Under the pieces are notes generated by a model. It was not told the DNA's origin and ran no database searches. It saw only the letters and a program-made list of their open reading frames with translations. From IMG/VR virus record IMGVR_UViG_3300042197_003319, positions 11,238 through 75,237 of that record: DNA of 64,000 nt; one strand, given 5' to 3'. Positions 2,660 through 47,700 of the stretch are shown here, in pieces. Position numbers and translations under genes: made by a program. Source of the stretch: a virus. The stretch's first letter is position 1. The number at the start of each line of letters is the position of its first letter.

Positions 2660-2677
2660 TTGACTTTATTTTGTCAA
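2660..2677. promoter_or_regulatory. palindromic operator-like site TTGAC-N8-GTCAA
   Basis: TTGACTTTATTTTGTCAA in the intergenic gap; the motif recurs at six other gene starts. Confidence 0.5.
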
Positions 2678-6925: not shown

Positions 6926-6930
6926 AAACC

Positions 6931-9492: not shown

Positions 9493-10761
9493 ATGGAACT
9501 GTATGACTGGCAGAAGGATTCGGCTGAGGCTCTTTTGGCGAGCCTGCGGGAGCACCATGTCGCAGCGGATTGGAGCGACACCGGCACCGGGAAGACGGCT
9601 AAGGCTGTCTGGGTTGCCAAGCAGTTGGGTAAGCCAGTCGCTATCATCTGCCCAAAAGCCGTAATCCCAGCCTGGAAAAACTGGTGCAAGGAAGCCGGAA
9701 TTGAGCCGACCTTTATCCTCAACTACGAAAAGCTTCGGGCCGGCTCCACGCCATACGGAGACTTTGTTGGTGGGGCCTGGGTATGGTCACAGCCGATTGT
9801 ATACGATCAACTCTTTATCTGGGACGAGGTCCACAAATGCAAAGGACCTAATTCTCTCAACGGGAAGATGTTAATCGCCTCCCGCCCTTACTACACGCTT
9901 ATGTTGTCGGCTACCTTCGCCTCAAACCCCCTCGACATGAAGGCCACCGGGTATGTCCTGGGCTTGCACAAATACGCGGATTTCTGGCCATGGTGCATCA
10001 AGAACGGGGTTAAGAAAGCCCCGTGGGGGGCCATGTCGTACTTTGGGGGGAAAAAGAGCCTGGCCGTGATCCACCAGGCCATGGCCCCTAAATCGAGCCG
10101 GGTCAAGATTCGTGAGCTGGGAGACAAATTCCCCGACAATGAGGTATTCGCGGAAGCCTACGATTGTGGGGATGTTCAAGGCCTATACGACGATCTGGAG
10201 CGCAGATTGGCCGAGTTGGAAGTTAGCAAGGCGGCTGACAAGCCCCACCCGATGACGGAAATCCTGCGGGCGAGGCAGGAATCAGAATTGTTGAGGGTCC
10301 CGATCTTGGCGGACTTGACGGATTCATTGCTCGACGAGGGGAGGTCGGTGGTTATTTTTTGCAATTTTCGTAATTCTCTTGACGCTCTTTTGTCAGTGTT
10401 TAGTAAATCCAGCTCAATGATCTGGGGAGGGCAATCTACCGAGGAGCGCCAGGAGATGATTTCCGATTTCCAGAGCGACAAGACCAACGTGATGTTGTGC
10501 CAGGTCCAGAGCGGTGGCGTAGGTGTGTCCCTGCACGATGAGAACGGTGTTCGCCCTCGTAGTTCCCTCATCTGCCCGACCTATTCCGCCATCGACCTTA
10601 AGCAGGCTCTGGGCCGCATCCACCGGGCCGGGGCCAAGTCCAAGGCTGTGCAAAAAATAATTTTCGCCGCCGGCTCCATTGAGGAGCAGGTGATGAAGAA
10701 AGTCAGAGCGAAACTGAAGAACATCGAAACCCTTAACGACGGAGACATCGAAACGATATGA
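9493..10761 (+). CDS. SF2 (SNF2-like) DNA helicase
   Basis: Q motif LYDWQ, DTGTGKT, DEVH, SAT and QALGRIHR. Confidence 0.9.
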   Translation: MELYDWQKDSAEALLASLREHHVAADWSDTGTGKTAKAVWVAKQLGKPVAIICPKAVIPAWKNWCKEAGIEPTFILNYEKLRAGSTPYGDFVGGAWVWSQPIVYDQLFIWDEVHKCKGPNSLNGKMLIASRPYYTLMLSATFASNPLDMKATGYVLGLHKYADFWPWCIKNGVKKAPWGAMSYFGGKKSLAVIHQAMAPKSSRVKIRELGDKFPDNEVFAEAYDCGDVQGLYDDLERRLAELEVSKAADKPHPMTEILRARQESELLRVPILADLTDSLLDEGRSVVIFCNFRNSLDALLSVFSKSSSMIWGGQSTEERQEMISDFQSDKTNVMLCQVQSGGVGVSLHDENGVRPRSSLICPTYSAIDLKQALGRIHRAGAKSKAVQKIIFAAGSIEEQVMKKVRAKLKNIETLNDGDIETI

Positions 10762-14410: not shown

Positions 14411-14613
14411 GCGTTGATGTGAGAATCCGTGCCGTCGAGGACACGGAAAACGACAAACTTCGGTTTGAGATTCATTTGGACCGGTACGGGGCCACGGATC
14501 TGGAATTGGCGGCGGCACAGAGGATTTATCCCAAGGTCGCCAACCTGCTCGAGATCGTCACCCACGAGGTCGAGAATCCACCGGAGGAACCCTCAAGAAT
14601 CATCGTTCCCTGA
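14407..14613 (+). CDS. hypothetical protein
   Basis: MSVDVRIRAVED...; coupled to the polymerase start. Confidence 0.55.
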   Translation: MSVDVRIRAVEDTENDKLRFEIHLDRYGATDLELAAAQRIYPKVANLLEIVTHEVENPPEEPSRIIVP

Positions 14614-27868: not shown

Positions 27869-30091
27869 ATGATTACCACTACTGACAGGCCGACGCCAAC
27901 AGTCGTCGGTGCCAAGTCGGAGGTCGGTTTCACCATCGACCCCCGCAACCTTGCCCACGTTGTCAGTCTGTTGCGCGACGCTTACTCCGACCCGATCACT
28001 GCGGTGCTTCGCGAGTATTCCGTCAACGCGGCCGACGCGCACGTCGAGGCGGGTATTCCCAACAAGCCGATCAGGGTCACCCTGCCCGGCAGGTTGGAGC
28101 CGGTGCTCAAGATCCGCGACTTCGGTCGTGGCCTTACGCCGGAACAGATCGAGAGTTTGTTCTGCTCGTATGGCGCTTCCAGCAAGCGCACCAGCAACGA
28201 CTACACCGGTTGCCTTGGCATCGGCTGCAAATCGGCCTTTGCCATCACCGACTCCTTCACCGTCACCACCTTCCACGGTGGCCGGGCAAGGTCGTACAGT
28301 TGCTTTCTTGACGAGAGCGAAGTCGGCAAGGCCGTCCTGCTGAGCGACAAGCCCAGCAACGAGACGGGCGTGCTGGTCAGTATCCCGGTCAAGAAGGACG
28401 ACATCGGCACGGTTGAGAACAAGGCCATTGAGGTATACAAGTACTTCAAGATCCGGCCTGAGTTCGAAAACCTCGGCAACTCCCGCCTGCAGGAGATCAC
28501 CCGACCCGCGTATCTTTACCGGACAGACGGCGTTGGTCTTCGCAACGGCAATTCCTGGCGCAACGACGACAGCAACATTGTGATGGGCAACATTGCCTAT
28601 CCGATCAAGATTGACGAGTTGGGCCACGATAAGATCCAGGAAATCCTTAACTACACCGCGTTTGACATCGAAGTCCCCATCGGTGCGGTCGACATCGCTC
28701 CGTCCCGTGAGGAACTCAAGTACAACGCCAGGACCAAGAAAGCCGTGCTCGAGGCGGTCAAGGACGCGTTCAAGCGTATCGGCAAGAGCGCGGCCGACGA
28801 CATTGCCAAAAGCAACGACCTGTTTTCGGCCATCAAGATCTTCAAGGCCTGCTTCCAGCGCCACAAGCTGGACGGCTACCTTCGCGGTCTTGGCCACAAG
28901 CCGGTCTACAAAGGCAAGGAGCTGACGTCCTGCGACATCAAGCTCTACGACAAGGAAGAGGAAGCCAAGCAACACGGCTTTGCCGTTCGTCGCCTGGTCA
29001 AGCTCAACACTATTCGGCGTGGTAAGTCCTATCAGTTCAGTGAGACCAACACCATGGAGATCGGCCTGGATGACAAGCTGTATCACGACACCTCATCCAA
29101 CCAGATGGAGTTCTACGGCAGGGTCCGGACGTTGTTGTCCGATCCCCACTTCAGGTCCGCGTACGTGTTCAAGACACGCAACGGGGGCATGGATTATCTC
29201 CGCAACAAGCAACCCTTGTTGAACGAGATGACGTTCGATGACTTTACAGCCATCGATATCACACCTCCGGAGAAAACGGACACAAACGTCCGTGGTCCGA
29301 TCAACAACGCCAAGCACTCGATGCAGGTCTTCAAGCTCAAGCCTGACGACAAGCTCAGCGAGTGGCAAAGGCATCAGTCCGAGCATTGGCTTCCAGCCAG
29401 CATCGATCTTAAGAACGACAGCGGCGTGTATTTCGCCATTGATCGTTTCCAGATCACCACGGAATCCAACTCGCGGGACGTCAGCGATTACGTGGAGAGG
29501 ATCAAGCTTCTTCGGAGGTTCGGCTACAAAGGCGAGCTATACGGCTTCAAGCCTGCTGTGGTCGAACGGCTGAAGAAATCCAAAAGCACCAATTGGGTCC
29601 TGTTTCACGATAAATTCCGAGAGCTCTGGGAAGCCAGGGTTGCTCCTTATCGCGAAGCCATGGACAACCACTTGAATTACCTGATGCACATCAACGATCG
29701 CAATGGCGATCGGGAAATCATTGATGTCCTTCACAAGGAAACCTTTGCCGAAGGAACCGTGGCTTCCATGTACAAAGACGCGTTGGATCGATGTGTCGCC
29801 AATCCACCAGGCGTGGATCTGGCCAAGGAAGCCAAGTTGATCGACGGCAACATGTGGTTGTTGCCCAAGCTCAAGCCGACCATTGACCTGGACGGCCTGT
29901 GCAAGCTGTTCGATGAGCGGTACCCGATGGTCATGTTTTGGTCTCTTGATGGCGGCAGCTACGAATCTGCCACCATAAAGGCCAGAAATACCCGGAACTC
30001 CAAGTTGTTGGCCGACTACTTGAAGTTGGTCGATGCCAATGACGCAGTCATTTCAACCTCAACAACAAAAAGAAAGGATAAAGGTGAGTAA
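27869..30091 (+). CDS. rIIA: rIIA-like protein (GHKL/Hsp90-type ATPase N-terminus)
   Basis: YSDPITAVLREYSVNAADAH, IRDFGRGL, YGASSKRTSNDYTGCLGIGCKSAFA, DIAPSREEL. Confidence 0.85.
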   Translation: MITTTDRPTPTVVGAKSEVGFTIDPRNLAHVVSLLRDAYSDPITAVLREYSVNAADAHVEAGIPNKPIRVTLPGRLEPVLKIRDFGRGLTPEQIESLFCSYGASSKRTSNDYTGCLGIGCKSAFAITDSFTVTTFHGGRARSYSCFLDESEVGKAVLLSDKPSNETGVLVSIPVKKDDIGTVENKAIEVYKYFKIRPEFENLGNSRLQEITRPAYLYRTDGVGLRNGNSWRNDDSNIVMGNIAYPIKIDELGHDKIQEILNYTAFDIEVPIGAVDIAPSREELKYNARTKKAVLEAVKDAFKRIGKSAADDIAKSNDLFSAIKIFKACFQRHKLDGYLRGLGHKPVYKGKELTSCDIKLYDKEEEAKQHGFAVRRLVKLNTIRRGKSYQFSETNTMEIGLDDKLYHDTSSNQMEFYGRVRTLLSDPHFRSAYVFKTRNGGMDYLRNKQPLLNEMTFDDFTAIDITPPEKTDTNVRGPINNAKHSMQVFKLKPDDKLSEWQRHQSEHWLPASIDLKNDSGVYFAIDRFQITTESNSRDVSDYVERIKLLRRFGYKGELYGFKPAVVERLKKSKSTNWVLFHDKFRELWEARVAPYREAMDNHLNYLMHINDRNGDREIIDVLHKETFAEGTVASMYKDALDRCVANPPGVDLAKEAKLIDGNMWLLPKLKPTIDLDGLCKLFDERYPMVMFWSLDGGSYESATIKARNTRNSKLLADYLKLVDANDAVISTSTTKRKDKGE

Positions 30092-30869
30092 CAACATAGC
30101 CTACAACATCAACCAAAACTCCCTCGTCGCCCTGATTGACGGCGAGGCGTACACAATACCGAAGTCGCATCCCAAGTTCGCGGACATCGCGGAAGCCTTG
30201 CGGAACGAGCTGACGCAGGACGAAATCCTGCCCCTCTTCCAGACGGCCAAGCAGGTCGCGGACTACACGGAAGGGTCGATCGAGGTTCGTGGTGGCAAAG
30301 TCTTCTTTGCCGGCGAGGAAGTCGGCGGCGCTGTCGTCGACCGCATCCTCGAGTTCATGTCGGAAAAGCTGCCCCACAGGCCGCTGGTCCGATTCCTTGA
30401 GCGTCTGATGCGGAACCCGTCGTTCCGCAGCCGCGAGCAGCTCTACTCGTTCCTGGAGCACAAAAACCTGCCAATCACTCCCGACGGCAAGTTCCTGGCC
30501 TACAAGTCGGTGTCGGCGGAGTACATGGATCATCACTCGGGCAAGATCTCCAATAAGGTCGGCTCGGTGATCACCATGCCGCGTCACCGCATCTCGGACG
30601 ACCCGAGCATCGGATGCCACACCGGCCTCCATGTCGGCGCGCTCGAGTACGCACGGGACTTCGGCGGAAGCGACCGCAAGGTCGTCATCTGCGAGATTGA
30701 TCCCGAGCACGTGGTCAGCGTTCCGCTTGACTGCGACTGCCAGAAGATGCGCGTCTGTCAGTACCGCGTGGTCGACAACTACAAGGGTCCGTTGGACCGG
30801 CCCATCGTCGATGATTACACCGACGACGAAGAGTCCTACGACCCGGACGAAGTAACCTCAACCTACTAA
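30084..30869 (+). CDS. rIIB: rIIB-like protein
   Basis: FLERLMRNPS..SREQLYSFL, PITPDG.FLAYKSV, C..GLHVG, IDP..VVSVP.D...KMRVC.Y; directly follows rIIA. Confidence 0.85.
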   Translation: MSNNIAYNINQNSLVALIDGEAYTIPKSHPKFADIAEALRNELTQDEILPLFQTAKQVADYTEGSIEVRGGKVFFAGEEVGGAVVDRILEFMSEKLPHRPLVRFLERLMRNPSFRSREQLYSFLEHKNLPITPDGKFLAYKSVSAEYMDHHSGKISNKVGSVITMPRHRISDDPSIGCHTGLHVGALEYARDFGGSDRKVVICEIDPEHVVSVPLDCDCQKMRVCQYRVVDNYKGPLDRPIVDDYTDDEESYDPDEVTSTY

Positions 30870-30880
30870 AGAAAGGCGAT

Positions 30881-30918
30881 TGGTCCCGGGGGTTCATTCC
30901 CCCGGGGCCGTCATTTTT
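30881..30918 (+). terminator. GC-rich hairpin/terminator after rIIB
   Basis: GGTCCCGGGGG-loop-CCCCCGGGGCC followed by TCATTTTT. Confidence 0.55.
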
Positions 30919-31104
30919 ATGCTTATCAATATCACCCACACCAAACGCATAGCTCTCGAGTATTCGCAGAAGCTACGCAACGGAAAATTTACCCGTGTTT
31001 CCAAAGCCTTTCTTGAGGACCTGGACCGCACGGTCAAACGAGAACTAGAACACAAAATTAGAACCCACCCCAGCAAGGGTAAAACCTTGATGGGAGGGCA
31101 ATAA
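30919..31104 (+). CDS. putative histone-fold-like small basic protein
   Basis: 61 aa: LINITHTKRIA (alpha1), TRVS (L1), long helix, GKTL (L2). Confidence 0.45.
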   Translation: MLINITHTKRIALEYSQKLRNGKFTRVSKAFLEDLDRTVKRELEHKIRTHPSKGKTLMGGQ

Positions 31105-31115
31105 GAAAGGAGTTT

Positions 31116-31466
31116 ATGTTACAACAGACAACCAACCCACCGCTCGAAGTTGTGTGGGAGAAGGGCATTCTTGCCAGCCGGTTTGGCGCCAAGACTGTCC
31201 AAAAGTCCAGCACCCACAGCTTCCCGCTCAACCACGCAACCGTCAGGACCTACCGTCTTCACGACGGTCACAACGCAAGTGTCGGGATCTACTACGATCG
31301 CGAGATTAAGGATCAGGGCCGCCGTCGCTGCGTGGCCAGCCTTTATTTCAACGATAAAGGAGAAGCCAGGGTCAACTTCAATGGCAACCTTGTGTACGAG
31401 GACTTGCAGGATATGGCTCGTTGCGTCCAGCACGTCCGGGATCAACTAGGGTCGCTCAAGTCTTGA
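31116..31466 (+). CDS. hypothetical protein
   Basis: AAGGAG SD. Confidence 0.6.
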   Translation: MLQQTTNPPLEVVWEKGILASRFGAKTVQKSSTHSFPLNHATVRTYRLHDGHNASVGIYYDREIKDQGRRRCVASLYFNDKGEARVNFNGNLVYEDLQDMARCVQHVRDQLGSLKS

Positions 31467-31472
31467 CTGTTT

Positions 31473-32249
31473 ATGGTCAATACTGCTTTAGCTGATTCGT
31501 TCTTTGACACGCTTACTCCAGAGGCGGTCAAGGATCAGACGGATTACTGGGAGAAGCTGGCGCCACAATCGCTCGACGACATGTTTCGGCGCTGGCTGTT
31601 TGCCTTCACCTCCATCCACACAAGCTGGAAAGGCAACGTGTACGGGTACGAAGCCCTCAAGGACTTTCTGCCCTGGAAGTGGAACAAACCCGAGCTGAAC
31701 AAACGTCTTCGGAACTGCGGCTGTGGCATGTACCAGAACCGCACCGAATACATCTGGGACTTCAGCCGCAAGTTCTGGGACAAGCCAACGGACTACTTTC
31801 CGCAGGCCGGAGAGCCGTGGCGTGCGTACCGGGACCGGCTGGTCGAGCAGAACCGTGGCATCGGCATCGCCAAGGTCAGTTATGTCCTTGAGCTGTGTTA
31901 CCCGATGACCGCGCAGGTCCTGTGCGGCGACATCCATCAATGCCGCCTGTACGGGGTCAACCGAAACCTGACCGGCAACGGTCCGGACAAACACGCATAC
32001 GAAACGATGGAGTATCACTGGGTCAAACGCAGCCGCGAGAAAGGCGTCAGCGCACCCGTGGCACGCCAGTCGTTCTGGAACAACCTTAAACAAAAAGCGA
32101 ATTCCCGCTTTTGGAGCTGGGTATTCGAACCGGAGGATATGAAGAAAGAACTAGACGCAAAAGAAGCAGCCATCGCCGAAGGCGAACGGCGCGAGATCGA
32201 GGAGCCCTTGTTTGTATGGGGCGAACAAAATGAGAAAGCCAGCGCCTAA
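31473..32249 (+). CDS. HhH-GPD superfamily DNA glycosylase-like protein (Ogg-like)
   Basis: HhH motif NRGIGIAKVSY followed by VLCGDIHQCRL (catalytic Asp, DxH). Confidence 0.7.
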   Translation: MVNTALADSFFDTLTPEAVKDQTDYWEKLAPQSLDDMFRRWLFAFTSIHTSWKGNVYGYEALKDFLPWKWNKPELNKRLRNCGCGMYQNRTEYIWDFSRKFWDKPTDYFPQAGEPWRAYRDRLVEQNRGIGIAKVSYVLELCYPMTAQVLCGDIHQCRLYGVNRNLTGNGPDKHAYETMEYHWVKRSREKGVSAPVARQSFWNNLKQKANSRFWSWVFEPEDMKKELDAKEAAIAEGERREIEEPLFVWGEQNEKASA

Positions 32250-35766: not shown

Positions 35767-38700
35767 TTAATCCACGTTCCTCGGCCCAAGCTCCCGCTTC
35801 AGCTGCCTTTTATCCGAAGCCTCCTGCCATAACTCGTATTTGTTTAGCACCAGAAGATCAGCGCTCTTGTTGGCTCTGCTTGTTAGGCGGGTGATCTCGT
35901 TTTGAACATCGCCAGAAGTGCGCTCAGGCAGTTCTTTAAGCCACTCCGGGTCCCTCAACGTTTCCCTAAGAACCTTCGCCCTTTCCATAACCCAATCATC
36001 CCTCTGCTCTTCGTTTAGCAGCACCCCCCTCACCCTTACTTGTCTTTCCGGCAGGGTCACCCAAGCCCTCTTCTTGGCCAGCTCAATCCAAAGAGGGTCG
36101 GGGTTATCCCGATAGCGCATAACAATATCCCCATAGTTGAAGAACGCCTGCTTGGCCCTATCCCATCCGTCCTTAGGCAGTTCTGATCCGTCGCTCAGCA
36201 TGGGCTCTCCCAATACGTTGGTCATAGGGTGGTTAAAGTTGCGGAGGAAAGGGATGTTCCCGATCCCAGCCGCCATAATGGATGAGTAATTGTCGGTCTT
36301 TTCGGGGAAGATTTTCCGGTCAGCTTCCCGCAGCAGGTTCCCAAACAGCATAGACCCACCCGTCCGCATCAGGAAGGCAACCGCTTTTTTGTCCCAGCTT
36401 CCGCTGTCCAGGTTGCCAAGGTCGGCCAGGGTTTTCACACCGCTTAAGAACGGAACGTCAACGATGCCAAAGAGCATCGACTTTAATCCGGCCAGTGAGA
36501 ACTGCATGGCCAGCTCCCCAGCCTTTGCCTGGTTGGGCTTCTCGTACTTTGAATAGTCGCGCATGTACCCCAGCGATTTAAACAAGAGGAAGGTCGGCAG
36601 CCAGTTCGGGTTCTTGAACCACATATTCCCCACCTTGATGCTTTCCGGTTGCCATTTTCCGCTGTCGATCAAAGCCTGCCTGAACGCAGGATCCGAAGGA
36701 CCCTTGCCGGAAAAGTCCAGGAACCTTTCTTTTTCGTCATCGTCTCCGTCAATTGTCCTGGCGATAATCGCAGTCAATCCCGCCAGCATTATCCCTAAAC
36801 CTGCAATCCCCCCGCCTAGTTCCATTGCCCGCATGTCGCTGGGCTTCTGCCTGGTCCCCTCTCCCCACACCTTGATCGTAGGGTTCATGCTCTTGAGTAT
36901 TCCTGTCCCCATCCAGGACAGCCATGTCTGGTAAACCGAAGTCACAATCCCGTAAAAAGGCTGGACCAGTTTCGCGATCAGGTAATCGTTGGACCATCCC
37001 TCCAAGGTCTTCGCGAGGAAACCCGTGACTCCCATCGGCTTGTTGGTGTAAGCCAGCACAGAGCCCAGGAAAAACGCCTCGTCAGTCACAGCCCCGACCA
37101 TTCTGTCGATGGTCTTCCTTTCAGCTTCGCTCGCCCTGTTCCAGACACGGTTCCAATAGGGGTTCGCCAATCCACGATTCCTTCTGGCCGACAGGTAAAG
37201 CTGTTGCCGGAACTCAAGTGTCCCAGGCTTGAGCCTTTCCACCCGCTCCTCAGACGCTTCCCGCTCTAGTTTCCGCACGATCTCCGGGCCTTCCAAGCCC
37301 TCCGGCAATCTCTCGTTTGTCCCGGCAATCTGTCTTGCGGTCCTGAGCATGCTGCCCAAGTCAGAAGACAACAGGCCCTGGGCATCAGGAACATCCCGGT
37401 CAGGGTAATTTTCAGCGAGCTCCCTCGAAACATCGGAAGCCGCAAGAGCTGCCGCAAGTTCGCTGTAGAAAGTTGTCGTGGCCAAATCCAGGGAGTTGTA
37501 GAGCCTCGAGATCAGAATCCCAAGACCTGTGGGGCTCACCTGGATTGCCGCTGAGTCTCCGTATTCGGGTGACCTAATCGTTCCGGCGCCAACCTTCTTT
37601 AACCCTACCCGAACAAGCTTAAATGTTTTGTCCCAGGCGCTCTTGGATATCGGGATTTGAGGCCAGATTCCACGCTTGTTCCACCCAAACCAAAGCTCAG
37701 CAAGCTTGGCCACGCCCCTGCCGAACGAAGAGTTTGCGTTGATCCGAACACCACCCTCACCAAGAAGCTCGGGCAAGGGACGACCGGATACCCTGGTCGA
37801 TAAGGTTTTTCCTGGAGCAAGGGTTTTACCTGAGCTGTCCCCGGTTGCCAGCAGGTCAATGGCTTCCACCAGGGCGTTGTTGATCGCTCTTGGGATGGCC
37901 TTCATGGCGACCCTGACAGACGACATGTTCTTGTCCCTGGCAACCCTCACCCCAAGCATAGCCCCGAGGTTCAGCGCGTTGCCGATTGGTGACAGAAGGT
38001 TGACCGTGATGGTCTTAACCCCTTGCAAAATATTCGTGTAGAACTGGCCGACAAAAGCCTCGAGAACCGTGACCCCGGAATCCTTCTTGATGGCGTCCAG
38101 GATGTCCATGGTCTTGCGGCCGGCCCTTCTGGAGTCAGGACCGTCAGGATCGTTGGCGATTTCGTTGGCTAGTTTCTCAATCGTCTTCTTGGTCTGCTCG
38201 CTCGGCATCCAGTTCTCGTCGTCGAGCTTTAGCTTCTTGGCCACATATCCGTAGATCACCTGCTCGGTAAGGTTCCCAGCCAAAGCAGCCTTCACGACGT
38301 TATGCAGGTTGTCCCGAATGGCCCTTGTCGCCCGGTTCTCGCTCTTCCCGAACACAAGTTGAATGGATCGCTGGATCTCGGTTTGGGCGATCTTTTCCAT
38401 TTCGTCCGAGATCTTGGACAGAACCCGCCCAAGCACGTCCTCCTTAACCTCGATTCCGCTGGCCTTAAGCTCGGCCACCAGGTCGGCCAGAACCTCTGCT
38501 TTCCTGGCCGTCAAAAGATACCTGCGGTTAAAGACAAACTCCTTGAAGTTGAAGCTTGGGAGGGTCATGTACGACCTGACGTCCGCCGTGGTGAACGGTT
38601 CGTCCATGGCCTGCTGCATGGCCTCGACAATCAATTGGTAAGAGCCTTCGTCCACCGAGTCTTTGAGGCTGTCGTAGATCATTTGAACCGCAGTCTGCAG

Positions 38701-41700
38701 GGATTCCCAGTTGTTCATGGCCTCGCGGAACCTGCGGACAGACTGAAGTTTCCTTTGCTCCTGGCTCATCTTGCTGCGGGTCAGCTTGAGCTGTCCGTTA
38801 CCCTGGAGCTGAACCCTTTCGCGAAGGATTCTGCGGATGATCCCCACGGCGGTTTCTTTGGGGGCCTTGTTTTCCGCGTCTTTTGCGTCCAGGGCCCTTT
38901 CAAAATTCTCAAGAAACCCATCCAGGACGTTCTCGATAATCTTTCGGCTGGCTTTGTTAACGTCTTTGACTGGGCTTCCGGTTCCCGAGACCTGCTCGTC
39001 TGCCTCGTCAGACATCATAGTGGTTCCGAAACGGTTCCAGAGGTGATTGTTGATCTCGTTTGTCGTCGCTTGGGCTGACTCATCAAGCACGTCCTGGGCC
39101 TCTTCGATGTTTTCCAGAACTTCCCCTTCGGAAACACCAAGCTCTTTGGCCACTTCTTTGGCGGAGGCTGTGCCTTTCTGCAAGAGCGCAGCGGTTCCCT
39201 CGGCAACCGTGGCCGACATTTGCCGTCTTGTCTCAGCCGAATCCTCGGTCTTCTTGAGCAGTTCGACCATTTCCTTGGCCGTCTTGATCTGCTGGTCGAG
39301 CACGTCGGAAAGCGTGTTTGTGCTCATCCTCTGCCACTCCGAGGAGATGCTGGCAATTCTCTTGGCCTTTAACAAAAGCTGCGCCCAGATGGCGTTGTTC
39401 GCTGTTGATTCGATCAGCCCGCCAAGCTTGGAAACTTCTTCTTTCCCAAACACTTTCTCCAAGGCGCTGTTGATGGCCTGGTCGCCAGCCATCTTGGCTT
39501 TGGCGATGTCGTCCGCAAACAACCCGACCTGGCGGAGCCTTTCGACCTGCTTGGCGTTTGTCGCAAACCACATCCAGCCAGCCACTCCGATCCTTGAATA
39601 AGCCCCAAAAGCCCTAAGCCCTTGGGCAAGGGATGTCCCGAGGTCGGCTTGTTTTCTTGCCAGAGCAAACTGCATGGCCCGTATTTCGTTTGCCCTTTCC
39701 GGGTTTTCCTTTGCTGCTTTTTCCAACTGCTGGATAAGGATTGAGTTAAGGATAACGATGTTGTCAAAGTGCCTGGTGCTTCCGTCGCGGATGGCCTGAA
39801 GCTCTTCGTCGTTAACGCTAAGATCGGGGCTAAGGATTGCCCTGGTTGCCTGCTCTGCCCCACCGACACGGTTGATCAGGGCCAACATTTCCTCTGCCCG
39901 CAAGGGCTGGGTCCTTACCGAGTACTTAAACTCACCCAGAGCTGTCGCGCTTCTGAGTTCGTTGCCAAGTCGTTCATCCCTGGCCAGCTGCCCGGCAAAC
40001 ACCTGGCGACGTTCTTTGCCTTCCCGCTTCTTAAAGTATTTCATGCCCCTGGCTTCCCGCTCTCCCTGTTCCCCACGGTATGGGCTTCCGGTTCCAGCCA
40101 CATCGTCGTTGCGGATTACAAACTTAATCGTTCCGGCTTTCTCCTGTTTCTCAAGCTCACGGACCAAAAGCCCAAATTCAGATCTCTGCCACACACGTCC
40201 GTTAAAAGGATATTTAGCGACAATCATTTGAGAGGCTACGTTTCCTCGAGCCCCTTCCCTTGAAACGTTTAGTGTCGTAAACCCAATAGCTCCTTTGTCT
40301 ATCAAGTCCCAGGTAAACCTAAATTTCGGTCTGGCTCTCCTGGCTTTGGCCTCACTTCCAGTTACCGGAGGTTCCGGATGAACCGTTTCTTTCGTGGAAA
40401 GCTTGTCCCGTTTGTTGATCTCAAAGGATGTTTTTGCGTTACGGCCAATTTCCGAGTACTCAAGCTTTTGGGAATTGGTCTTGTCCACCTTGTAAAGGTC
40501 CAGGGAATTAAGCTCGTGGTAGCCAGGTATTTTTGGGACCCCCTCAAAATAGAGCACGGTCCTGGGCTGGATGACGATCTTCGTCCCTTTTGTGACACCA
40601 GTTGCGTCCCCGTAGTCTTCGTGGGAATACATGTTCACATAGCGGTTGTTCTCATCCAAAAGGCTTTCGGGTGTTAGACTAACTTCTGTCAATACTCCGC
40701 CACGATTGGTCGAAATGCTTATGCCCGAGGTGGCAATCACATGGTCCAAGGGGGTCAACTTTAACCTGTCGGAATGCTCAAACCGCTCAAACAAGAACCG
40801 CTCCAACTCTTCCGCCGACATTCCGTTGTTGTTGTCGATGATGGTGTAGCGGTTGTTCACCTTGTCTACAGTCACACTGACCTTGGTTTTCGCATTTCCG
40901 GCTTTGAACGCCTGCTGAATCAGCTCCGTAAGTCCGTTAACCAGGTCGTAGTCCTTGGCCTGGCCGATAGCATTCTCCACCAGGGTTTTATTTACCAACA
41001 GAGGAACCTTAACCCTGCCCGGAGCATCTTCCCCGTCATAGTAAAGCGATCCGGTTCCGGCAACTTCTCCGTTGCGGCTTACAAGTTGAACCCCAGTCGG
41101 AGCCCTGTCCTTATACAGCATCTGCGGGTAGGTTACGTGTGAACGCTCCTTGATGATCTTAAGCGCAAGATCCATCAGGTTATTTGTCCTTGGCGATTCC
41201 GGTATCTTAATCACGTCACCTGGTTTCGGCTGGTAATCCGTCGGAAGGTTATTGTGTTTGGCCACTTCCTCCCTGGTCAGTCCGTACTTTGTCGCAATCT
41301 CAAGCAGAGTCAGTTGTTCCGGAGCCTCGAAGAACGGAGGCACTTCCACGCTCTTGGTAGTTCCGGGAATCAGCAATTGAGAACCGACAATAACTTTACC
41401 CATCGTCAGGTTGTTTGCTTTCTTGAGGTCCTGGACGCTAACACCGTTTTTGGCCGCGATATCAGCGAGCACTTCATCTGAAGTCCGCTTGCGGCCTTCC
41501 GGCACAACATATTCAGTTGCCTCTACCGGGACATCCATTTGGGGGGACTTGCCCGCGAACAGCATGTTTTCGGTCACGCTTCTCATGGGGCCGGTTGCGC
41601 TGATCTTTTTGCTGCGATTCACAACCGACATGCTCTTTGGCGTGTTCCGTAATAGGGCAAGCTGCTGGATTTTCTCCAAGCCCTGCTTGTTAAACTCACC

Positions 41701-44700
41701 CTTGCGATAGGTGACCCAACCAAACATCATCCCCACCTTGACAATGTCCTGGTCGTTTATCGAAGCGCCTGCCTCAAACCTTCCCGCGAGGTATGCCTCG
41801 GCTTCCCGCTTTACGACATAATCAAAACTGGAATTGGTGGCTCTACCCTGCTCAATGGCTTCCATCAAAAGGTCGATGCGCTGTTTCCGCAGCGCTTTCC
41901 TGACTTCGATTTGCGACTGCGCGACATTGTCGGGCCTTTCCGTTTTCTCGATGTCCACCTTCTTGGTTCTGGTGGCGATGTCTTTGCCGTACCACTTGCC
42001 TTTGTAGTAAATGTCGCCCTGCTCGCCCAGTTTCTGAATCGCAATCATCACCGCTTCGTCGGCGTTCCTGGCCCGGATATAGATCTTCTTTGACCTTGAG
42101 TTGACAGCACCGATGCTTCCGGTCGAGCGGTTGATCTTTGCCGCAGCGGAAGCCATCGACATCACCATGGCCTCGCCTCTCGGCCCACCCCGCTTGTTCG
42201 GCTTGCCGGCGATCTCTTTAAGGAGTCTTTTGGCGTTTATGTCGGCGATTTCCGGGTGAAGTTGGAACTCCCACATGGAGTTGCCCCGTTCGTCAACCAT
42301 AGGCTCGGACTTAATGATCGGCGTTCCGGCTGGCTTCATCCCAATTATGGTTGCCGGCTTGAGCGACTGAGTTTCCTTTTCGCTCTTGAACTCCACCCTC
42401 CGAATCGCGGAAAGATCCGGCTCAACGGGAAGTGTGACCATCAGGGTGGGGGAATCCGTCCCCTGGTCGCGGGTGATGGTTACGGCTTTCTTGGTCGTGT
42501 AATAAGCCGAAGCCGCGTATTCAGCGTGCAGACTCGGCACATAGGAACCGTCGGTAAATATCGGGATCTTGAAATTCCCCGAAACGTTTTTGTCGGAGTT
42601 ATACTTAAGGATCATCCCGACCCCACCGTAAGACACCGGCAACTGCCACTCTCCGCTTTCCGCCTTGGACCACCCTTTCTCTTTGGTTTCCTGGTAAAGG
42701 ATTTCCGCAGATATCTTCTTATCCTCGACGTTTGCCAGGCCAAGATAGTTTGCCGGGAATGTCCACTCGATTGTCTTTTTGTAGACCGGGGCCCCCTGAC
42801 CAAACTTCGGGACCATGCCGCGACGCTTGAGCTCCGCCACAATCGCCGGTGGCAGATTGTTAAGTTCCTGTTCTGTTACAAGGACACCTTCCTGGGAGTC
42901 ATCGACTTTGATTTGGCTTACGTATTCGGTCTTCAGCATTCTGTCGAATACGTCCTGGACCTCAGCTTTTTCAGCGAGGATTTTCTGCCGTGCAGCCTGT
43001 AGTTCTGAACGTTTTTTGAAAGCCAAAGCTGCTCTTGGGTTGTTCTCTTCTCCCATCTGCAACTCGGACAATATCTCCTGGTTAATCAAAAGAATTTTTT
43101 GATCCTGCTTTCGGATGTCTTCTTCAATATTTTTTAAGTGGACACGATATTCGTTAACCCTCTTTGGGATGCTTGGGGTTAAGACCGCGGAGCGAATCGA
43201 CTTTTGGTCGATCAACTTCATGGTCATCTGCAGACGTCGTCTGGCGGCTTTGTCGAGAGGTGCCGGAGGAAGCTCCTGTTTCGCTTTTTTAGAAACCCAT
43301 TTTTTAAGACCAGCGTCCCAATCGGCATCCGCACCGGTGATCTCCGGGATTGAAACGTTGGTCGTCAGCCACTGCTCGTAAGCCGCCACTGCTTTCTCGG
43401 CAAGCTCCCTGGCTTCCTTTGTCTTCTCTTGGTCGCCGATGGCGTTTAGAAACCGCAGGATTTCCTTGGTATGTTTGTTGGTTTCTACAAGTTTTTTGAC
43501 GGCCTCGTCTTCGTAGGACAATATTCTTGAGTTGGTTTTTGTGACCTCGATTGCCTTTCGGAAAGGCCCAAACAGCACATTGACAACCGGGTCCTGCAGG
43601 GCTTTTGTCTGAACCATCGGCTCCGAAAGCTTTTTGATTTCCTGCATGAAGTCCCGCAATTCCTTACGGGTTTTCGCAAGCTCGATTGTTTCTTCGAGCC
43701 ACTGCTCATCCTTGGCAATTGTTTCCAGAACTTTCTTGAACCGGAAATAGTTTTCCATGCCGGCAGCTTCCAGGGCGGCAAGCAACCTGTTGTATTCCCA
43801 CCGCGACTTGAATCCCCTCTGTTCCAGCACTTCGTCCGTGATCTCCGGCGAATCGAATACTTCCAGGTTTGCCAGGTTGGGCCCGTACTTCTCTTGCTGG
43901 TCGGTGGTTATTTGAAAACCTTGAGCGCCCATGTACAGGCCGTGTTGAGTGGACAAATAGGCGTATTTTCCTGCGTAATCCTCCGTTAGGATTTCTTCGG
44001 CCGCGGAATCAACATCCATGCCGTCGTAAAACTCTTCGTCGTCAAGCCCGGTATTAGGGTTATTGTAGTTCGAAGAAGCGTAATCGGTTTCTTCTTCGTA
44101 AACTTCCTCGCCAAAATAGTACACGGGTTTCTGAATAGATTGGCGATCGCGCTCAAGCGTTTTCCGAACCACCTCCCATTTTATTTCGGCAATTTGTCTA
44201 CGTATCTCCTTCATCTCCAACTCGATCTGTTCGCGTGTCCTTGGCGTTCCTGTTCCCGATACCCATTCCTTGGACTCAAGGTCTTGATTTGGTTTTTGCG
44301 CTTCCTTAACCCTAAAGGTCACCGCTTCCATTGCTTTTTGGATGGGTGACACGGAAAACATATCTTCCGCATTCCCCTGACGCGAGTTGTCGGAAAGAGC
44401 CGCTGCCAGCTCGTCCATCATCACATTAAACAAGGTGGCTGATTTCGCTGTATACTTTGTCTTTCCGTTTTCCAATTTTGTGGTCGGCCCGATTTTCTCG
44501 GACATGAAATCGACCAGGGCCCTGAACTCTGGGTTTGCATCGATCTCTGGGAACTTGTTGGTGGCTGTGCCCTTTTCGTCAAGCAGGTCCATGACGTTGG
44601 AACTTGAAGCCAGCTCTTTGATTGCCGCGTACGGGCTCATGTTTCTGGCTTTTTGGGAGAGCATTTGATTCATCAACCTGCTGAAGAAAGCCTTGTACTG

Positions 44701-47700
44701 GGCGCTTTCTTTTTCCCCAAGAACTTCCGACGATGCGACACACTGGGCCATGGACAAATAGAGGTTTTTGGCGTTGCCCTGGTCCATCACTTCCCTGACC
44801 ATTTCTGTTGCCGGGGTTGTGCTTTTGGGGGCATTCAGATGTCGGTCCATCGGCTGCAAAAACTCACGTAGGATCATGTACTGCAGGTATTCGACCGGCT
44901 GAGAACCTGCCGCGCTGCTCAGCAAGGCGGCTCTAGAATCCCTGTCGATGACGTTTTCTTCGACGAGTTGTTTGATAAATGTCTGAGCCCCCTCCCTAGT
45001 CAGGTTGTGGAGATCGACGGCAAGAGACCTTAGCTTTTTGCGCTTGGTCTCTGATTTGGCCACAGCGTCATAATCCTGGTCAGCTTTTTGCAAATGGGTC
45101 AGTTCCGACCCACCTTCAGCGTTCATCACCTTAACCAGGTAATCCAGTCTTTCGGAACCCTCCTGGGTTGAGGTGTCAACCTGCTCCGTCATTACCCGAT
45201 AAAGGAAATACCCTCCAGTTTCGAGGTCGGCTGGTATTTCTCCCCCCATTCTGGCCGTCATGTCTTTCGCAAGATCCAGCATTGCAGACACGTTTTCGGG
45301 AGACTTGGCAAACTGATACCCGAGAACTTGCTCCCGTGCATTGCCTCCGACCACCATCCATTCGCCTACCGCCTTATCAAAAATAAGGGTGGGAAGCCCT
45401 TGGTTGGGCGAACCGGCCCCCTCGTTTACGATCTGCTGCGGGTCAAAACCTGGGCCTTGGATTTTTAGAATCTTTTCCTTTTCTGCCGGGTCATAAGAAT
45501 AATTCCTGGTATTGCGACCGGTGTATCTTGAGTTTGCCCCAAAGAATTTTTCTGAACCCATGTGGGAGGCCTGAACCTTTGACCTTTTGACCCAGGCGTA
45601 AACAAAAGGATGCCTTTGACCAGAAGCGTCTCGCACCTTTTGCTCTGGCCCAAAATCTACGATATCTCCTGGGTTTCTCTTTTTAAGCGTGGTGGCATGC
45701 GTAATTGTTCTTGTGACGCTGGACAAGTCCACCGGCTCTGCGGTTACAGCTGAGCCACCTTCCCTGAGCGTAACCTTCGGTCCCTCCTCCGTGGAAACAA
45801 GTTTGAGCAGGCTGGTTATTGACTCGTTGTTTTTCGGGGGTGCGTTAGGACCATATTTTTCAAGGTGGAAAAGGATGTTGTCCGTTGCGTCCAGGACAGA
45901 CCCAAGGAATGGGCTGTCTTTTACGGTGATGCCCAGACGGCCAAGGATATCAAACACCGCCTGCCGCAATGCCTTGAACCACATCGCCAGGTATCCGTCT
46001 TTGGGAACCCCTTTGAGGAGCTGTCTCAGGCTTTCTTCGTCTGCCTCGGATGGGCGGATAAAGTCCTCCGTCGTGTAACCAAGTCTGGCTTTTTGCAGGA
46101 CGAATCTGATGTATTCAATGGTTGCCGATTTGTCATCAAGCTCCCTGCCGTACCTTTTTCTTAGGAGCTCCAATGCTTCCGGGGATATCTCTTCAAAAGC
46201 CTTTTGGGTCAGGTAGTTCATTGTCCTGGAGTAAGCTTCCTGGGCGGTTAGTTCTCCAGACCTAATCTGCCTGTCATACAACTGAACAGCCACGGTTCTG
46301 ACCACCGCGTAAGTTGCGTTGTGCGCCATCTCTTCGCTTGCTGTGCTCAGAAGATATCCTCTTCCCGCTTCGCCAACCCTGCCCCGCATGTTGAGGGAAA
46401 TCCTGTCCCTGTTGTTGAGGAGGACTTCCGGCTTGATGTATACCGTGTTGAAGTCCGGTGACGAAATACTTACCCAAGCCGCCATGTCTCCCCTGTCCCC
46501 AAAGATAATTTTTACGTTCTTGAACTTCAGGTCCGAAAGGGCTTTTGCGAATTCGTCGACAACATCCTGCTGGTAAGGTGACAAGCTGGAAAATCTTTCG
46601 TCAACAAGCTGACCGTTTCTAAGAACAGTTGCCTGCCTTCGGACTTCGCCCTGCAGGTCTTTTGCGTAGACTTTTCCGTCGCCAGTTTCCTTCGGTATCT
46701 GGGGGCGACCATCAACATAAGTCGACCCTTGAAAAGGAAGGGTGGGTTGGTTGCTGTCGCCTTGTTGCAGAACACCCTGGGTGGCGGCAAGAACACCCTG
46801 CTTGCTTTCCCGTCTGCGGATTCTCTCAAGGTCCGTCCAAATGTCCGAGGCAACCAGTTCTTTGATAACCGGCTCCGACATGGAAGAAAGCCGGTAGCCT
46901 GCGCGCTTTAGGATCTGATCGTGCTTGTCGGCAGCCTCGTTCGGAGTCGCGATATAAACAACTCTTGGTGCTGTTCCCGTCTGGTCGTCCAACGATAGCC
47001 CGGCTCCACCCTTCATCGGGGTAACAAGAGCCACACGTTTTAGGCCTACCTGGAAGTCATTGATGTCGGAGGTCATTTGAGCTCCGCCTTCCCCGTAAAT
47101 GACAGCCGGCTGGAGTCCTTCTTTGCGGAACATGTCGTTCAGCATCTCCAGCATGGACGGGGTTTTGCCGAAGTTTATCTCCGGGAAGGAGATCTCGTTG
47201 ACGAATTCCCCGAAGATAACAACCTGCTTGCCTTGCCGCAGATCCTGCATGGCCATTTCGAAAATGTACGGAGCCTTGTTAACTTCGGCCCAGGCTTCCG
47301 TCTTGAACTTCAACACGCCCTCAAGCTCGAGCGTTTTACGCTGTTGCTCGACCGTTGGGATCACCGAAGGGTCGCCGGTCAGCTCGGAAATTTGTCTGCG
47401 GTAATAACCCTCGATCTGTTCGATCTGAGCCTTGATTTGCGGACCGGCGTTAAGCTCAACCCTCGATGTCTGAACGTTGATCCCTTCCGGCACTCTCCGG
47501 ATGTAGGCCCCAACGGTTGCAGCCGACTCAACAAGGTTGGCGATGGTCTCCTCTTTGTTCTTGGAGATTTCCAACATCGAGCGAACGGTTGTCTCTGATT
47601 TGCCGAGAATTCCCGGCAGGAAATAGAGAGCACCCGAAAGGCGGTCGGCGGGAGTTGCCGTAAGGAAAATCTTAAATGCCTTGGTCTGCCTCGCCATCTG

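What the first reader, a model, noticed from the sequence alone, without database searches (positions are those of the whole stretch)
30919..31104. Possible phage-encoded minimal histone
Seen: 61-aa basic protein LINITHTKRIALEYSQKLRNGKFTRVSKAFLEDLDRTVKRELEHKIRTHPSKGKTL. Established: prokaryotic histone folds have alpha1, an L1 loop RV(S/G), a long alpha2 and an L2 loop (R)KT(I/V), and alpha3-truncated variants are known. Inference: a histone-like DNA-coating protein in the early region, near a glycosylase, DUF932 and rII, that may shield or condense phage DNA or silence host DNA.
Basis: inference. Interest (0 to 1): 0.7.

Follow-up and report, generated by a model that had tools for sequence, protein, structure and literature searches.

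The report
Two-helix phage histone-fold protein
A complete 75-kb freshwater phage carries a real, strongly conserved 61-codon gene for a very basic, stripped-down histone-type protein with no third helix; it probably pairs up and binds DNA, and it belongs to a large phage family that no annotation library covers and nobody has tested at the bench.

Summary
It is a real gene: against three close relatives, codons 20-61 carry 7-8 synonymous and no replacement changes.

It belongs to a large family of about 60-aa proteins (768 clusters at 50% identity, 1,920 at 90%). All are called "hypothetical". None has a Pfam hit, only 1 of 77 has a PHROG hit, and three family queries found no copy in 50,697 cultured phage genomes.

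Two disjoint family profiles each hit a single solved structure: HTkC (PDB 9F2C), an alpha3-truncated archaeal histone (E 3.3e-5 and 6.8e-5). The monomer model's best structural matches are almost all histone folds. The predicted homodimer has the histone handshake contacts.

The family differs from described alpha3 histones. It has no third helix and lacks the Arg-Asp clamp. It keeps the loop-1 Arg and loop-2 Lys-Thr that contact DNA in solved histone-DNA complexes.

Its neighbours in other phages are mostly replication and DNA-modification genes. DNA binding is inferred, not shown, and nucleosome-like coating is unlikely without the third helix.

Phage mini-histones were catalogued by computer in 2024-2025, and this scan has already noted the same kind of gene in at least 18 other genomes. 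I therefore rate it a new variant of a known kind, of moderate interest.

The parts
30919..31104 (+). Gene for the 61-aa two-helix histone-fold protein (P0001), stop codon included
   Evidence: ORF and translation. pN = 0 over codons 20-61 against three relatives. Family of 768 clusters at 50% and 1,920 at 90% identity. Profile hits to HTkC 9F2C.
30931..30975 (+). Helix alpha1 (residues 5-19). K9 is K or R in 98% of family members.
   Evidence: AF2 model has helix H5-19. Column frequencies. In the dimer model, residues 8, 11, 12, 15 and 16 contact the partner's alpha2.
30976..31002 (+). Loop L1 (residues 20-28, RNGKFTRVS), with R20, F24, R26 and V27 kept in 94-96% of members
   Evidence: It pairs with the partner's L2 in the dimer model. 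RVS aligns with RVS of HTkC.
31003..31065 (+). Central helix alpha2 (residues 29-49), 21 residues in the model
   Evidence: AF2 model has helix H29-49. Antiparallel alpha2-alpha2 contacts 35/43, 35/46 and 39/35.
31066..31101 (+). Loop L2 and short tail (residues 50-61, HPSKGKTLMGGQ). G54 is kept in 99% and T56 in 100% of members. No alpha3 helix.
   Evidence: No helix after residue 49 in the model. In one search, the 160 proteins then held (150 profile-search hits plus the window's protein and its 9 close relatives) showed 72 ending 0-1 residue after the G-x-T-[LIVM] motif.
30881..30910 (+). GC-rich hairpin (12-bp stem) followed by a T-run that abuts the ATG. It looks like a terminator, lies between rIIB and the histone-fold gene, and is conserved in relatives.
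   Evidence: Scan. Fold energy -30.5 kcal/mol, z -4.6. Stem invariant in L020-L022.
30033..30869 (+). Upstream neighbour, rIIB-like gene (context). Synteny is kept in relatives.
   Evidence: phrog_609, E 1e-72. Synteny in L020-L023.
31116..31466 (+). Downstream neighbour, 116-aa ORF of unknown function with a good Shine-Dalgarno sequence (context)
   Evidence: Conserved only in close relatives.

Best explanation
The gene encodes a minimal histone-fold protein with the layout alpha1, loop L1, alpha2, loop L2 and no alpha3. It is a diverged relative of the alpha3-truncated histones of archaea and bacteria.

Two chains probably cross their alpha2 helices antiparallel in the histone 'handshake'. 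This places L1 of one chain (F24-T25-R26-V27-S28) beside L2 of the other (G54-K55-T56-L57).

The two L1/L2 pairs and the basic alpha1 (K9, R10) would then bind the backbone of double-stranded DNA without sequence specificity, as HBb, HLp and HMfB do.

Without alpha3 it cannot build the four-helix bundle that stacks nucleosomal histone dimers. It most likely acts as a dimer or small oligomer that bends or bridges DNA. In that case it would be an architectural accessory of phage replication, recombination or transcription, not a packaging histone.

Shown here: the gene is real and conserved, it is homologous to HTkC, and it is very basic. Predicted: the fold and the dimer. Inferred: DNA binding and the biological role.
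For: 1. Purifying selection: pN 0 and pS about 0.25 over codons 20-61.

2. Sequence homology: two disjoint family profiles (A2 with 77 sequences, A5 with 79) each give one significant hit among 177,635 PDB sequences. That hit is HTkC 9F2C, at E 3.3e-5 and 6.8e-5, aligned from RVS through alpha2 to KTL.

3. Monomer model: AF2 gives pLDDT 78.5 with helices 5-19 and 29-49. An exhaustive structural comparison ranks TAF4 first (Z 5.9, rmsd 1.9 over 49). HTkC (Z 4.7), Marseillevirus histone, CENP-A, HBb (Z 4.4) and HLp (Z 4.3) are all in the top 14. The only two Foldseek rows are CENP-A entries, and both are weak.

4. Homodimer prediction: score 0.83, best of 3 controls 0.00. The mark was reached by 20 of 30 proteins solved as pairs of one chain and by 1 of 23 solved as single chains. 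Runs agree in at least 98% of contacts and partner pLDDT is at least 92. Contacts are alpha2-alpha2 antiparallel (35/43, 35/46, 39/35), alpha2 to alpha1' (43, 47 with 8, 11, 12, 15, 16) and L2 to L1' (55-58 with 24-28). Histone dimers are solved, so this pass shows likeness to them.

5. Conservation pattern: the best-kept positions are those that contact DNA in solved histones. These are the L1 Arg, the L2 Lys-Thr and an alpha1 Lys/Arg. HLp-DNA contacts in L1, L2 and alpha1 are described in PMC12701072.

6. Charge: the family is uniformly basic, with median pI 10.65 and median net charge +8.

7. Neighbours: among 150 flanking ORFs from 49 non-redundant loci, the commonest annotated families are DNA polymerase (at least 6 loci), clamp loader (3), processivity factor, ligase, methyltransferase and Mom-like modification (2 each). 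Single loci show RecT/exonuclease, helicase and a T7-type RNA polymerase nearby.

8. Fusion: one natural fusion joins the domain to a WLM metalloprotease domain at E 1.4e-18. By established knowledge that family (Wss1) is DNA-dependent.

9. Language-model neighbours: the nearest clusters that carry a Pfam family carry PF00808 or DUF1931, at scores 0.84-0.86. This is a lead only.
Against: No DNA-binding measurement exists for any member.

Structural Z-scores are low in absolute terms (under 6), which the tool warns is common for small helical models.

Pfam PF00808 does not detect the protein or any of 77 relatives.

The Arg and Asp of the RxTxxxxD 'RD clamp', kept in HMfB, HBb and HLp, are absent.

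The AF2 model of a natural doublet (P0044) did not match double histone folds as a whole.

Histone folds also serve as pure protein-protein modules, as in TAFs. TAF4 is in fact the best structural match.

Gene neighbourhood is suggestive only, and most neighbours are unannotated.
Confidence: 0.6

Rival explanations
1. It has a histone fold but is not a DNA-binding protein. The dimer, or a heterodimer with another small phage or host protein, would serve as a protein-protein adaptor or inhibitor. It could, for example, dock onto the phage DNA polymerase or clamp, or onto a host nucleoid protein, as TAF-type histone folds do in TFIID.
For: The best structural match is the TAF4 histone-fold domain (Z 5.9), which also lacks a packed alpha3 in that crystal. 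The RD clamp is missing. Family members often sit directly beside polymerase, clamp-loader or RecT genes.
Against: The invariant residues are the surface loop residues used for DNA contacts, not only the hydrophobic core. The whole family is very basic, with median net charge +8 in about 60 aa. The homodimer is predicted with high confidence. No constant partner gene exists, and the downstream 116-aa ORF is kept only in close relatives.
Confidence: 0.15
2. The protein would be a true packaging or coating histone that polymerises along DNA, nucleosome- or hypernucleosome-like or as an end-on coat. It would condense or shield phage DNA or silence the host chromosome.
For: It is a basic histone fold with the DNA-contact loops kept. 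By the literature, HLp tetramers wrap about 60 bp and reorganise the E. coli nucleoid when expressed (PMC12701072).
Against: There is no alpha3 and a shortened alpha2 C-terminus, so the four-helix-bundle interface of nucleosomal histones cannot form. Of the face-to-face tetramer residues R49, N53 and R55 (HLp numbering), the window has G54 where R55 would be, and the position of N53 is not kept as Asn. The gene has no Shine-Dalgarno sequence and lies just behind a strong hairpin, which does not suggest the very high expression expected of a coating protein. Oligomers above the dimer were not tested.
Confidence: 0.1
3. It is not a histone relative at all. It would be a convergent helix-loop-helix mini-protein with another job, such as a small transcription regulator, an anti-defence protein or an RNA-binding protein.
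For: No Pfam or PHROG assignment. Foldseek E-values are not significant. Two-helix models match many things at Z 4-5.
Against: Two independent family profiles find HTkC, and only HTkC, below E 1e-4. The aligned stretch runs from L1 through alpha2 to L2 with matching spacing. One family member (L017) even carries the canonical G-R-K-T-L loop. Histone folds fill nearly all of the top 15 structural rows.
Confidence: 0.1

Closest known systems
HTkC of Thermococcus kodakarensis, a face-to-face (FtF) alpha3-truncated histone (PDB 9F2C; PMC11390915)
   Same: It is the only solved protein reached by sequence, at E 3.3e-5 and 6.8e-5, aligned RVS-alpha2-KTL. Its size is similar (59 aa). It has a short alpha2 and only 5 residues after the KTL loop. 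Structural match Z 4.7, rmsd 2.5 over 48 residues.
   Different: HTkC has the Arg of R-K-T, which is an insertion relative to this family in the HMMER alignment. It also has a one-turn alpha3 and forms a tetramer. The phage family has H-P-S-x-G-K-T-L, no RD clamp, and mostly ends 0-5 residues after the loop. Tetramer formation was not tested here.
HLp of Leptospira perolatii (PDB 9QT0; PMC12701072) and HBb/Bd0055 of Bdellovibrio bacteriovorus (PDB 8CMP; PMC11317129)
   Same: Both are small bacterial alpha3 histones that bind DNA non-specifically through alpha1, L1 and L2. They are structural matches at Z 4.3 and 4.4. HBb works as a DNA-bending dimer, which is the mode proposed here.
   Different: Family profiles find no significant sequence hit to either. 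Both keep the R-D clamp and a four-residue alpha3. Both are chromosomal proteins of bacteria, not phage genes.
Computationally catalogued phage histone-fold proteins: Schwab's 'phage histones' (A0A2E7QIQ9 type, PMC11390915) and the clusters VTTHFP, VHHHFP, VFFHFP and BBVHFP (PMC13681535)
   Same: They are Caudoviricetes-encoded alpha3-type histone folds of similar size, known from metagenomes, predicted to bind DNA and untested at the bench.
   Different: Schwab's phage histones and VTTHFP carry a long C-terminal tetramerisation helix, which is absent here. The published conserved residues (K10/K49; K8, K9, K47, R48) do not correspond to this family's invariant R26, G54 and T56. I could not check whether any member of this family is in their lists. 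No supplementary files were held for PMC13681535, and the motifs were not found in the supplements of PMC11390915.
TAF4 histone-fold domain (PDB 1H3O)
   Same: Best structural match, Z 5.9 with rmsd 1.9 over all 49 residues. It is a two-helix alpha1-L1-alpha2 unit.
   Different: It is a eukaryotic TFIID subunit that heterodimerises with TAF12, at 14% identity. It shares the fold only, with no indication of shared function.

Membership tests
Histone fold (structural superfamily) | Short alpha1, loop, long central alpha2, loop | tested here: met
   AF2 model has helices 5-19 and 29-49 at pLDDT 78.5. The top structural rows are histone folds.
Histone fold (structural superfamily) | Antiparallel 'handshake' dimer with L1 of one chain paired to L2 of the other | tested here: met
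   Prediction only. Score 0.83, best of 3 controls 0.00 (mark reached by 20 of 30 solved homodimers and 1 of 23 single chains). Runs agree in at least 98% of contacts and partner pLDDT is at least 92. Contacts are 35/43, 39/35, 43 and 47 with 8-16, and 55-58 with 24-28. The pass may reflect likeness to solved histone dimers.
Histone fold (structural superfamily) | Third helix alpha3 after L2 | tested here: not met
   No helix after residue 49 in the model, and only 5 residues (L-M-G-G-Q) follow T56. Of the 160 proteins examined, 72 end 0-1 residue after the loop.
Histone fold (structural superfamily) | Match to Pfam PF00808 (CBFD_NFYB_HMF) or PF09123 (DUF1931) | tested here: not met
   No hit for the protein or for 77 relatives at E up to 1. 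PF00808 finds nothing in the phage genome, while its controls ring.
alpha3-truncated histones (Schwab et al. 2024) | Significant sequence relationship to a member | tested here: met
   HTkC 9F2C at E 3.3e-5 and 6.8e-5 with two disjoint profiles, and no other significant hit.
alpha3-truncated histones (Schwab et al. 2024) | alpha3 reduced to 3-4 residues and alpha2 shorter than in nucleosomal histones | tested here: inconclusive
   alpha2 is 21 residues in the model. The 5-residue tail is coil at low pLDDT in the monomer model, yet contacts the partner in the dimer model. Many relatives have no tail at all. The truncation therefore goes further than the definition.
alpha3-truncated histones (Schwab et al. 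2024) | RxTxxxxD motif (Arg-Asp clamp stabilising L2) | tested here: not met
   T56 is invariant. The Arg is absent: G54-K55-T56, with the Arg of HTkC an insertion in the HMMER alignment. No Asp can follow. The motif is defined in PMC11390915 and PMC12701072.
Face-to-face (FtF) tetrameric histones | Tetramer interface residues R49, N53 and R55 (HLp numbering) and a stable tetramer | tested here: inconclusive
   The R55 equivalent is missing and position 53 is K/V/R, not N. Position 48 is R in only 29% of members.
'Phage histones' of Schwab et al. / VTTHFP | C-terminal alpha-helix that forms a tetramerisation domain | tested here: not met
   The protein ends 5 residues after L2. Only 23 longer relatives were found against 1,920 of near length.

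The most novel reading that the evidence does not exclude
This would be the smallest natural histone fold, a two-helix, clamp-less unit. It would define a very large phage-restricted family that surveys based on Pfam, PHROGs and published histone profiles have mostly missed. It would act as the phage's own DNA-architectural subunit of the replication or recombination machinery, a functional counterpart of the histone-fold subunits Dpb3-Dpb4 of eukaryotic DNA polymerase epsilon, and not as a packaging histone.
Probability: 0.3. Interest if true: 0.7.

Novelty: new variant of a known kind. Interest (0 to 1): 0.5.

Why it matters
Histones were long thought absent from bacteria and their viruses. 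Only three alpha3 histones (HBb, HLp, HTkC) have been studied at the bench, and none of them is from a phage.

This gene represents a family of roughly two thousand 90%-identity clusters in uncultured phages. The family keeps the DNA-contact loops of histones but has lost the third helix and the Arg-Asp clamp.

If it binds DNA as predicted, that would show how far the histone fold can be pared down and still work. It would also give phage biology a new, widespread class of DNA-architectural proteins placed in replication modules.

The protein is 7 kDa and easy to synthesise, so the question is directly testable. Practically, the family deserves a profile in annotation libraries, since every member found here is labelled hypothetical.

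Tried and rejected
- Pfam and PHROG scans of the protein gave only chance-level rows: PET122, VipE and phrog_26269 at E 0.067. Of 77 relatives, none hit a histone Pfam family and 1 hit a PHROG.
- Foldseek of the monomer model against PDB gave 2 rows at E 8-10. Both are CENP-A entries, too weak to count alone. Foldseek against BFVD viral models gave nothing meaningful.
- A natural doublet of the family (P0044, 140 aa) was modelled to obtain an intramolecular handshake. pTM was 0.46 and the first half was poorly supported, because all singlets aligned to the second half. Fold searches matched only single halves (HTkC Z 4.7, HLp Z 4.4) and no double histone fold. This is inconclusive.
- blastn of 4 kb around the gene against 50,697 phage records found no match. 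tblastn with three family members (P0001, P0012 and the L015 protein) also found no match.
- The first genome-contig scan, with strict patterns, found none. The second, looser scan found 3 MAG contigs only.
- The motifs GKFTRVS, KFTRV and PSKGKT were not found in the supplements of PMC11390915, and none were held for PMC13681535. Overlap with the published catalogues therefore remains unknown.
- Sequence look-up in earlier findings of this scan gave nothing.
- RNA evidence: contigs from two metatranscriptome libraries of one sample, from a 90-95% identical relative, cover rIIB, the hairpin, this gene and the next ORF in one piece (30047-31444). DNA carry-over in an RNA library is not excluded and a contig shows no single transcript, so I do not count this as proof of expression. 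Uncovered stretches beyond about 31650 are not interpreted.
- I considered reading the hairpin as an N4-type promoter or an RNase III site. I dropped both for lack of any test.

Full report
OBSERVATION

The quoted peptide is residues 2-57.

The window is bases 11238-75237 of a 75,237-bp virus record with direct terminal repeats, rated 100% complete.

The gene lies in a + strand block with:
- an integrase (6856-8157), a helicase (9493-10761) and a DNA polymerase (14613-16370);
- rIIA (27869-30091) and rIIB (30033-30869);
- then, after this gene, a 116-aa ORF, a weak Ogg/HhH-like ORF (31473-32249; E 1e-3, below Pfam's cut-off), DUF932 and a GP88-family gene.

'Early' expression is not shown.

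IS IT A GENE?

The order rIIA, rIIB, this gene, orf116, Ogg-like, orf89, DUF932, GP88 is kept, in whole or in part, in the short metagenome contigs L020-L024. A more distant relative (L023) keeps rIIB followed by this gene.

Against L020, L021 and L022, codons 20-61 carry 7-8 synonymous and no non-synonymous differences, so pS is about 0.25 and pN is 0. That is strong purifying selection in this frame.

Codons 1-19 behave differently, with pS 0.59-0.67 and pN 0.28. In L020 the two flanking genes are 99% identical to the window's at the protein level. This looks like a short recombination patch within helix alpha1 and not simple positive selection.

THE FAMILY

A word-seeded search found only 9 relatives. 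A profile of them, read against every one of 1.84 billion representatives, found 768 proteins at E <= 1e-3 and 72 at E <= 1e-10. A profile of 77 diverse members then found 1,920 clusters at 90% identity.

Features of the family:
- Nearly all members are 57-64 aa. Every name on record but one is 'hypothetical protein', and none carries a Pfam domain.
- Only 1 of 77 touches a PHROG.
- Three family queries find nothing in 50,697 cultured phage records.
- 18 IMG/VR contigs and 65 metagenome contigs carry it.
- Among 185,579 species genomes, a motif scan found it only on three MAG contigs. One lies in a 1.95-Mb Verrucomicrobiae contig whose neighbours hit PHROGs, so it looks like a prophage.
- The consensus is L-I-N-x-x-x-V-K-x-x-A-L ... 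R-x-G-K-F-T-R-V-S ... H-P-S-K-G-K-T-L. Conservation is R20 94%, F24 95%, R26 95%, V27 96%, P51 95%, G54 99%, T56 100%, and K9 as K or R 98%.
- Members are uniformly basic, with median pI 10.65 and median net charge +8. The window's protein has pI 10.5.
- Most end 0-5 residues after G-K-T-L.

Variants exist:
- two true doublets (P0044, P0086);
- a subfamily of about 100 aa with a 25-35-residue insert in alpha2;
- N-terminal extensions;
- one fusion to a WLM metalloprotease domain.

Longer forms are rare: 23 were found.

IS IT A HISTONE FOLD?

Four lines of evidence agree.

1. Sequence. The profile of the nine close relatives already ranked HTkC (PDB 9F2C) first, at E 0.72. The 77-member profile A2 gives 9F2C at E 3.3e-5. 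A disjoint 79-member profile A5 gives 6.8e-5. In both searches nothing else falls below E 0.7.
   - 9F2C is the face-to-face alpha3-truncated histone of Thermococcus kodakarensis (PMC11390915).
   - The alignment runs from R-V-S of L1 through the whole of alpha2 to K-T-L of L2. It has one gap: the Arg of HTkC's G-R-K-T-L has no partner in the phage family.
   - One family member (L017) does read G-G-R-K-T-L.

2. Monomer model. AF2 with the small alignment gives pLDDT 78.5, helices 5-19 and 29-49, and coil afterwards.
   - Aligning the model to 48,161 representative chains puts histone folds in nearly all of the top 15 rows.
   - These include TAF4 (Z 5.9, rmsd 1.9, 49 of 49 residues), other TFIID histone-fold subunits, HTkC (Z 4.7), a Marseillevirus histone, CENP-A, HBb (Z 4.4) and HLp (Z 4.3).
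   - The Z-scores are modest, as expected for a 50-residue two-helix unit. It is the composition of the list that carries the weight.

3. Homodimer prediction. The score is 0.83 and the best of 3 controls is 0.00.
   - The mark was reached by 20 of 30 proteins solved as pairs of one chain and by 1 of 23 solved as single chains.
   - The runs agree in at least 98% of contacts and the partner's pLDDT is at least 92.
   - The listed contacts are those of a handshake: alpha2 against alpha2 antiparallel (35/43, 35/46, 39/35), alpha2 against the partner's alpha1 (43 and 47 with 8, 11, 12, 15, 16), L2 against the partner's L1 (55-58 with 24-28), and N-terminus against N-terminus (3/3).
   - Histone dimers are well represented among solved structures, so the pass demonstrates likeness to them. 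It does not prove that this protein dimerises.

4. Language-model neighbours. The nearest clusters are unannotated viral clusters. The nearest that carry any Pfam family carry PF00808 or DUF1931, at scores 0.84-0.86. This is a lead only.

HOW IT DIFFERS FROM DESCRIBED HISTONES

Schwab et al. define alpha3 histones by an alpha3 of 3-4 residues and a shortened alpha2, and note the RxTxxxxD motif. The HLp paper describes three features:
- the R55-D62 'RD clamp';
- the tetramer residues R49, N53 and R55;
- DNA contacts through alpha1 lysines, L1 (T27, G29) and L2 (T56, T57).

In this family:
- The Thr is invariant and the preceding Lys is kept in 81% of members.
- The clamp Arg and Asp are both gone, together with alpha3.
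- Many members stop right after the loop.
- The face-to-face tetramer signature is not recognisable.

The published 'phage histones' and VTTHFP cluster carry a long C-terminal tetramerisation helix, which this protein lacks. The conserved residues reported for VHHHFP (K8, K9, K47, R48) do not match this family's invariants.

I could not establish whether the published lists contain any member of this family. My own rough scaling suggests most do not. Taken to a database of about 1e8 proteins, the profile-to-HTkC E-value would be near 0.02, which misses the 1e-3 cut-off of that survey. This is an inference, not a test.

WHAT IT PROBABLY DOES

The best-conserved positions are surface loop residues that correspond to the DNA-contacting L1 Arg and L2 Lys-Thr of solved histones, plus a basic residue in alpha1. 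The whole family is strongly basic.

In other phages the gene sits in several settings:
- directly after a family-A DNA polymerase (L004, L013);
- directly before a polymerase of the same PHROG as this phage's own (L018, L019);
- before RecT and an exonuclease (L017);
- near a helicase (L016);
- at the left end of a T7-type contig, upstream of the RNA polymerase (L015).

I tallied 150 flanking ORFs from 49 non-redundant loci. The commonest annotated families were DNA polymerase, clamp loader, processivity factor, ligase, methyltransferase, Mom-like modification, rIIB and integrase. No structural gene was among the 25 commonest families.

The WLM fusion fits a DNA-binding module, because Wss1-type proteases are DNA-dependent by established knowledge.

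I therefore favour a non-specific DNA-binding dimer that bends or bridges DNA and assists replication, recombination or transcription. HBb is the nearest functional model.

Nucleosome-like stacking needs the alpha2/alpha3 four-helix bundle, which cannot form here. Nothing here speaks to shielding of phage DNA or silencing of the host.

EXPRESSION SIGNALS

A 12-bp GC-rich hairpin (30881-30910; -30.5 kcal/mol, z -4.6) with a T-run ends 8 nt before the ATG. There is no Shine-Dalgarno sequence and no room for a promoter. The stem is invariant in relatives while the loop varies.

The gene must therefore be reached by read-through from rIIB, or the hairpin has another role.

Contigs from two metatranscriptome libraries of one freshwater sample, from a 90-95% identical relative, span rIIB, the hairpin, this gene and orf116 in one piece. 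DNA carry-over cannot be excluded.

HABITAT

Runs holding half or more of the sampled words are freshwater metagenomes from three studies, one of which may be the source. Partial holders come from 14 studies in all.

COMPARISON WITH EARLIER NOTES OF THIS SCAN

I consulted these only after my own tests. Notes on at least 18 other genomes describe the same kind of two-helix phage histone-fold gene, with HTkC as the closest known protein. They agree with the reading here and show that this is a recurrent family, not a one-off.

VERDICT

- The fold interpretation is supported.
- The functional speculation is only partly supported.
- The gene is a new variant of a known kind: alpha3-type histones, already catalogued in phages by computer.
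- Interest is moderate. The family is large, unannotated and easy to test.

Noticed in passing
window 30919-30975 (codons 1-19 of the gene) against L020-L022: The alpha1-coding part is a divergence patch: 8 of 19 residues differ, with pS 0.59-0.67 and pN 0.28. The rest of the gene has no replacement changes, and in L020 the flanking rIIB and orf116 proteins are 99% identical to the window's. This looks like a short recombination cassette within helix alpha1.
   Followed up: partly
window 30881-30918: A strong conserved hairpin plus T-run (terminator-like) ends 8 nt before the ATG of the histone-fold gene. That gene has no Shine-Dalgarno sequence, whereas the next ORF (31116) has AAGGAG. In relatives an AAAGGAG lies just 5' of the hairpin, so the stem might bring a distant ribosome-binding site close to the start. 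This was not tested.
   Followed up: partly
window 35767-51492 (-): A 5,241-aa ORF has only scattered domain hits: ResIII/SNF2-type helicase around residues 1137-1284, LysM around residue 3340, and a weak HATPase_c. Its C-terminal 3,000 residues have no PHROG hit. It resembles the giant multi-domain 'polyvalent' virion proteins of other phages.
   Followed up: partly
window 6856-8157 (+): A tyrosine-integrase gene (phrog_1, E 9e-30) sits in a 75-kb phage with direct terminal repeats and rIIA/rIIB genes. This is an unusual mix of temperate and lytic-type features.
   Followed up: no
window 2660-2677, 31463-31480 and five near-copies (9428, 10379, 26927, 40675, 53586): The palindrome TTGAC-N8-GTCAA occurs 7 times at up to 1 mismatch, against 2.45 expected, and 0 of 100 shuffles reach 7. 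The perfect copy at 31463 overlaps the stop of orf116 and the start of the Ogg-like gene, two genes downstream of the histone-fold gene. It is a candidate operator or promoter element.
   Followed up: partly
L018:7941-8309, L019:570-1070; proteins P0027, P0045, P0051, P0059 and others: A subfamily of about 100-115 aa carries a 25-35-residue insert inside alpha2. In L018 and L019 it sits immediately upstream of a DNA polymerase of the same PHROG (phrog_17) as this phage's own polymerase.
   Followed up: partly
proteins P0044, P0086 (doublets), P0143 (WLM fusion), L017:7941-8168: Natural doublets of the two-helix unit exist. One member is fused to a WLM (Wss1-like) metalloprotease domain (E 1.4e-18). 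One member beside RecT carries the canonical G-R-K-T-L loop, bridging the family to classical histones.
   Followed up: partly
window 55228-59259 (-): A 1,342-aa tail-fibre protein has many collagen-like repeat matches to PHROG tail-fibre families.
   Followed up: no
window 30033-30091: The rIIA and rIIB reading frames overlap by 59 nt as listed. The true rIIB start may be a later codon.
   Followed up: no
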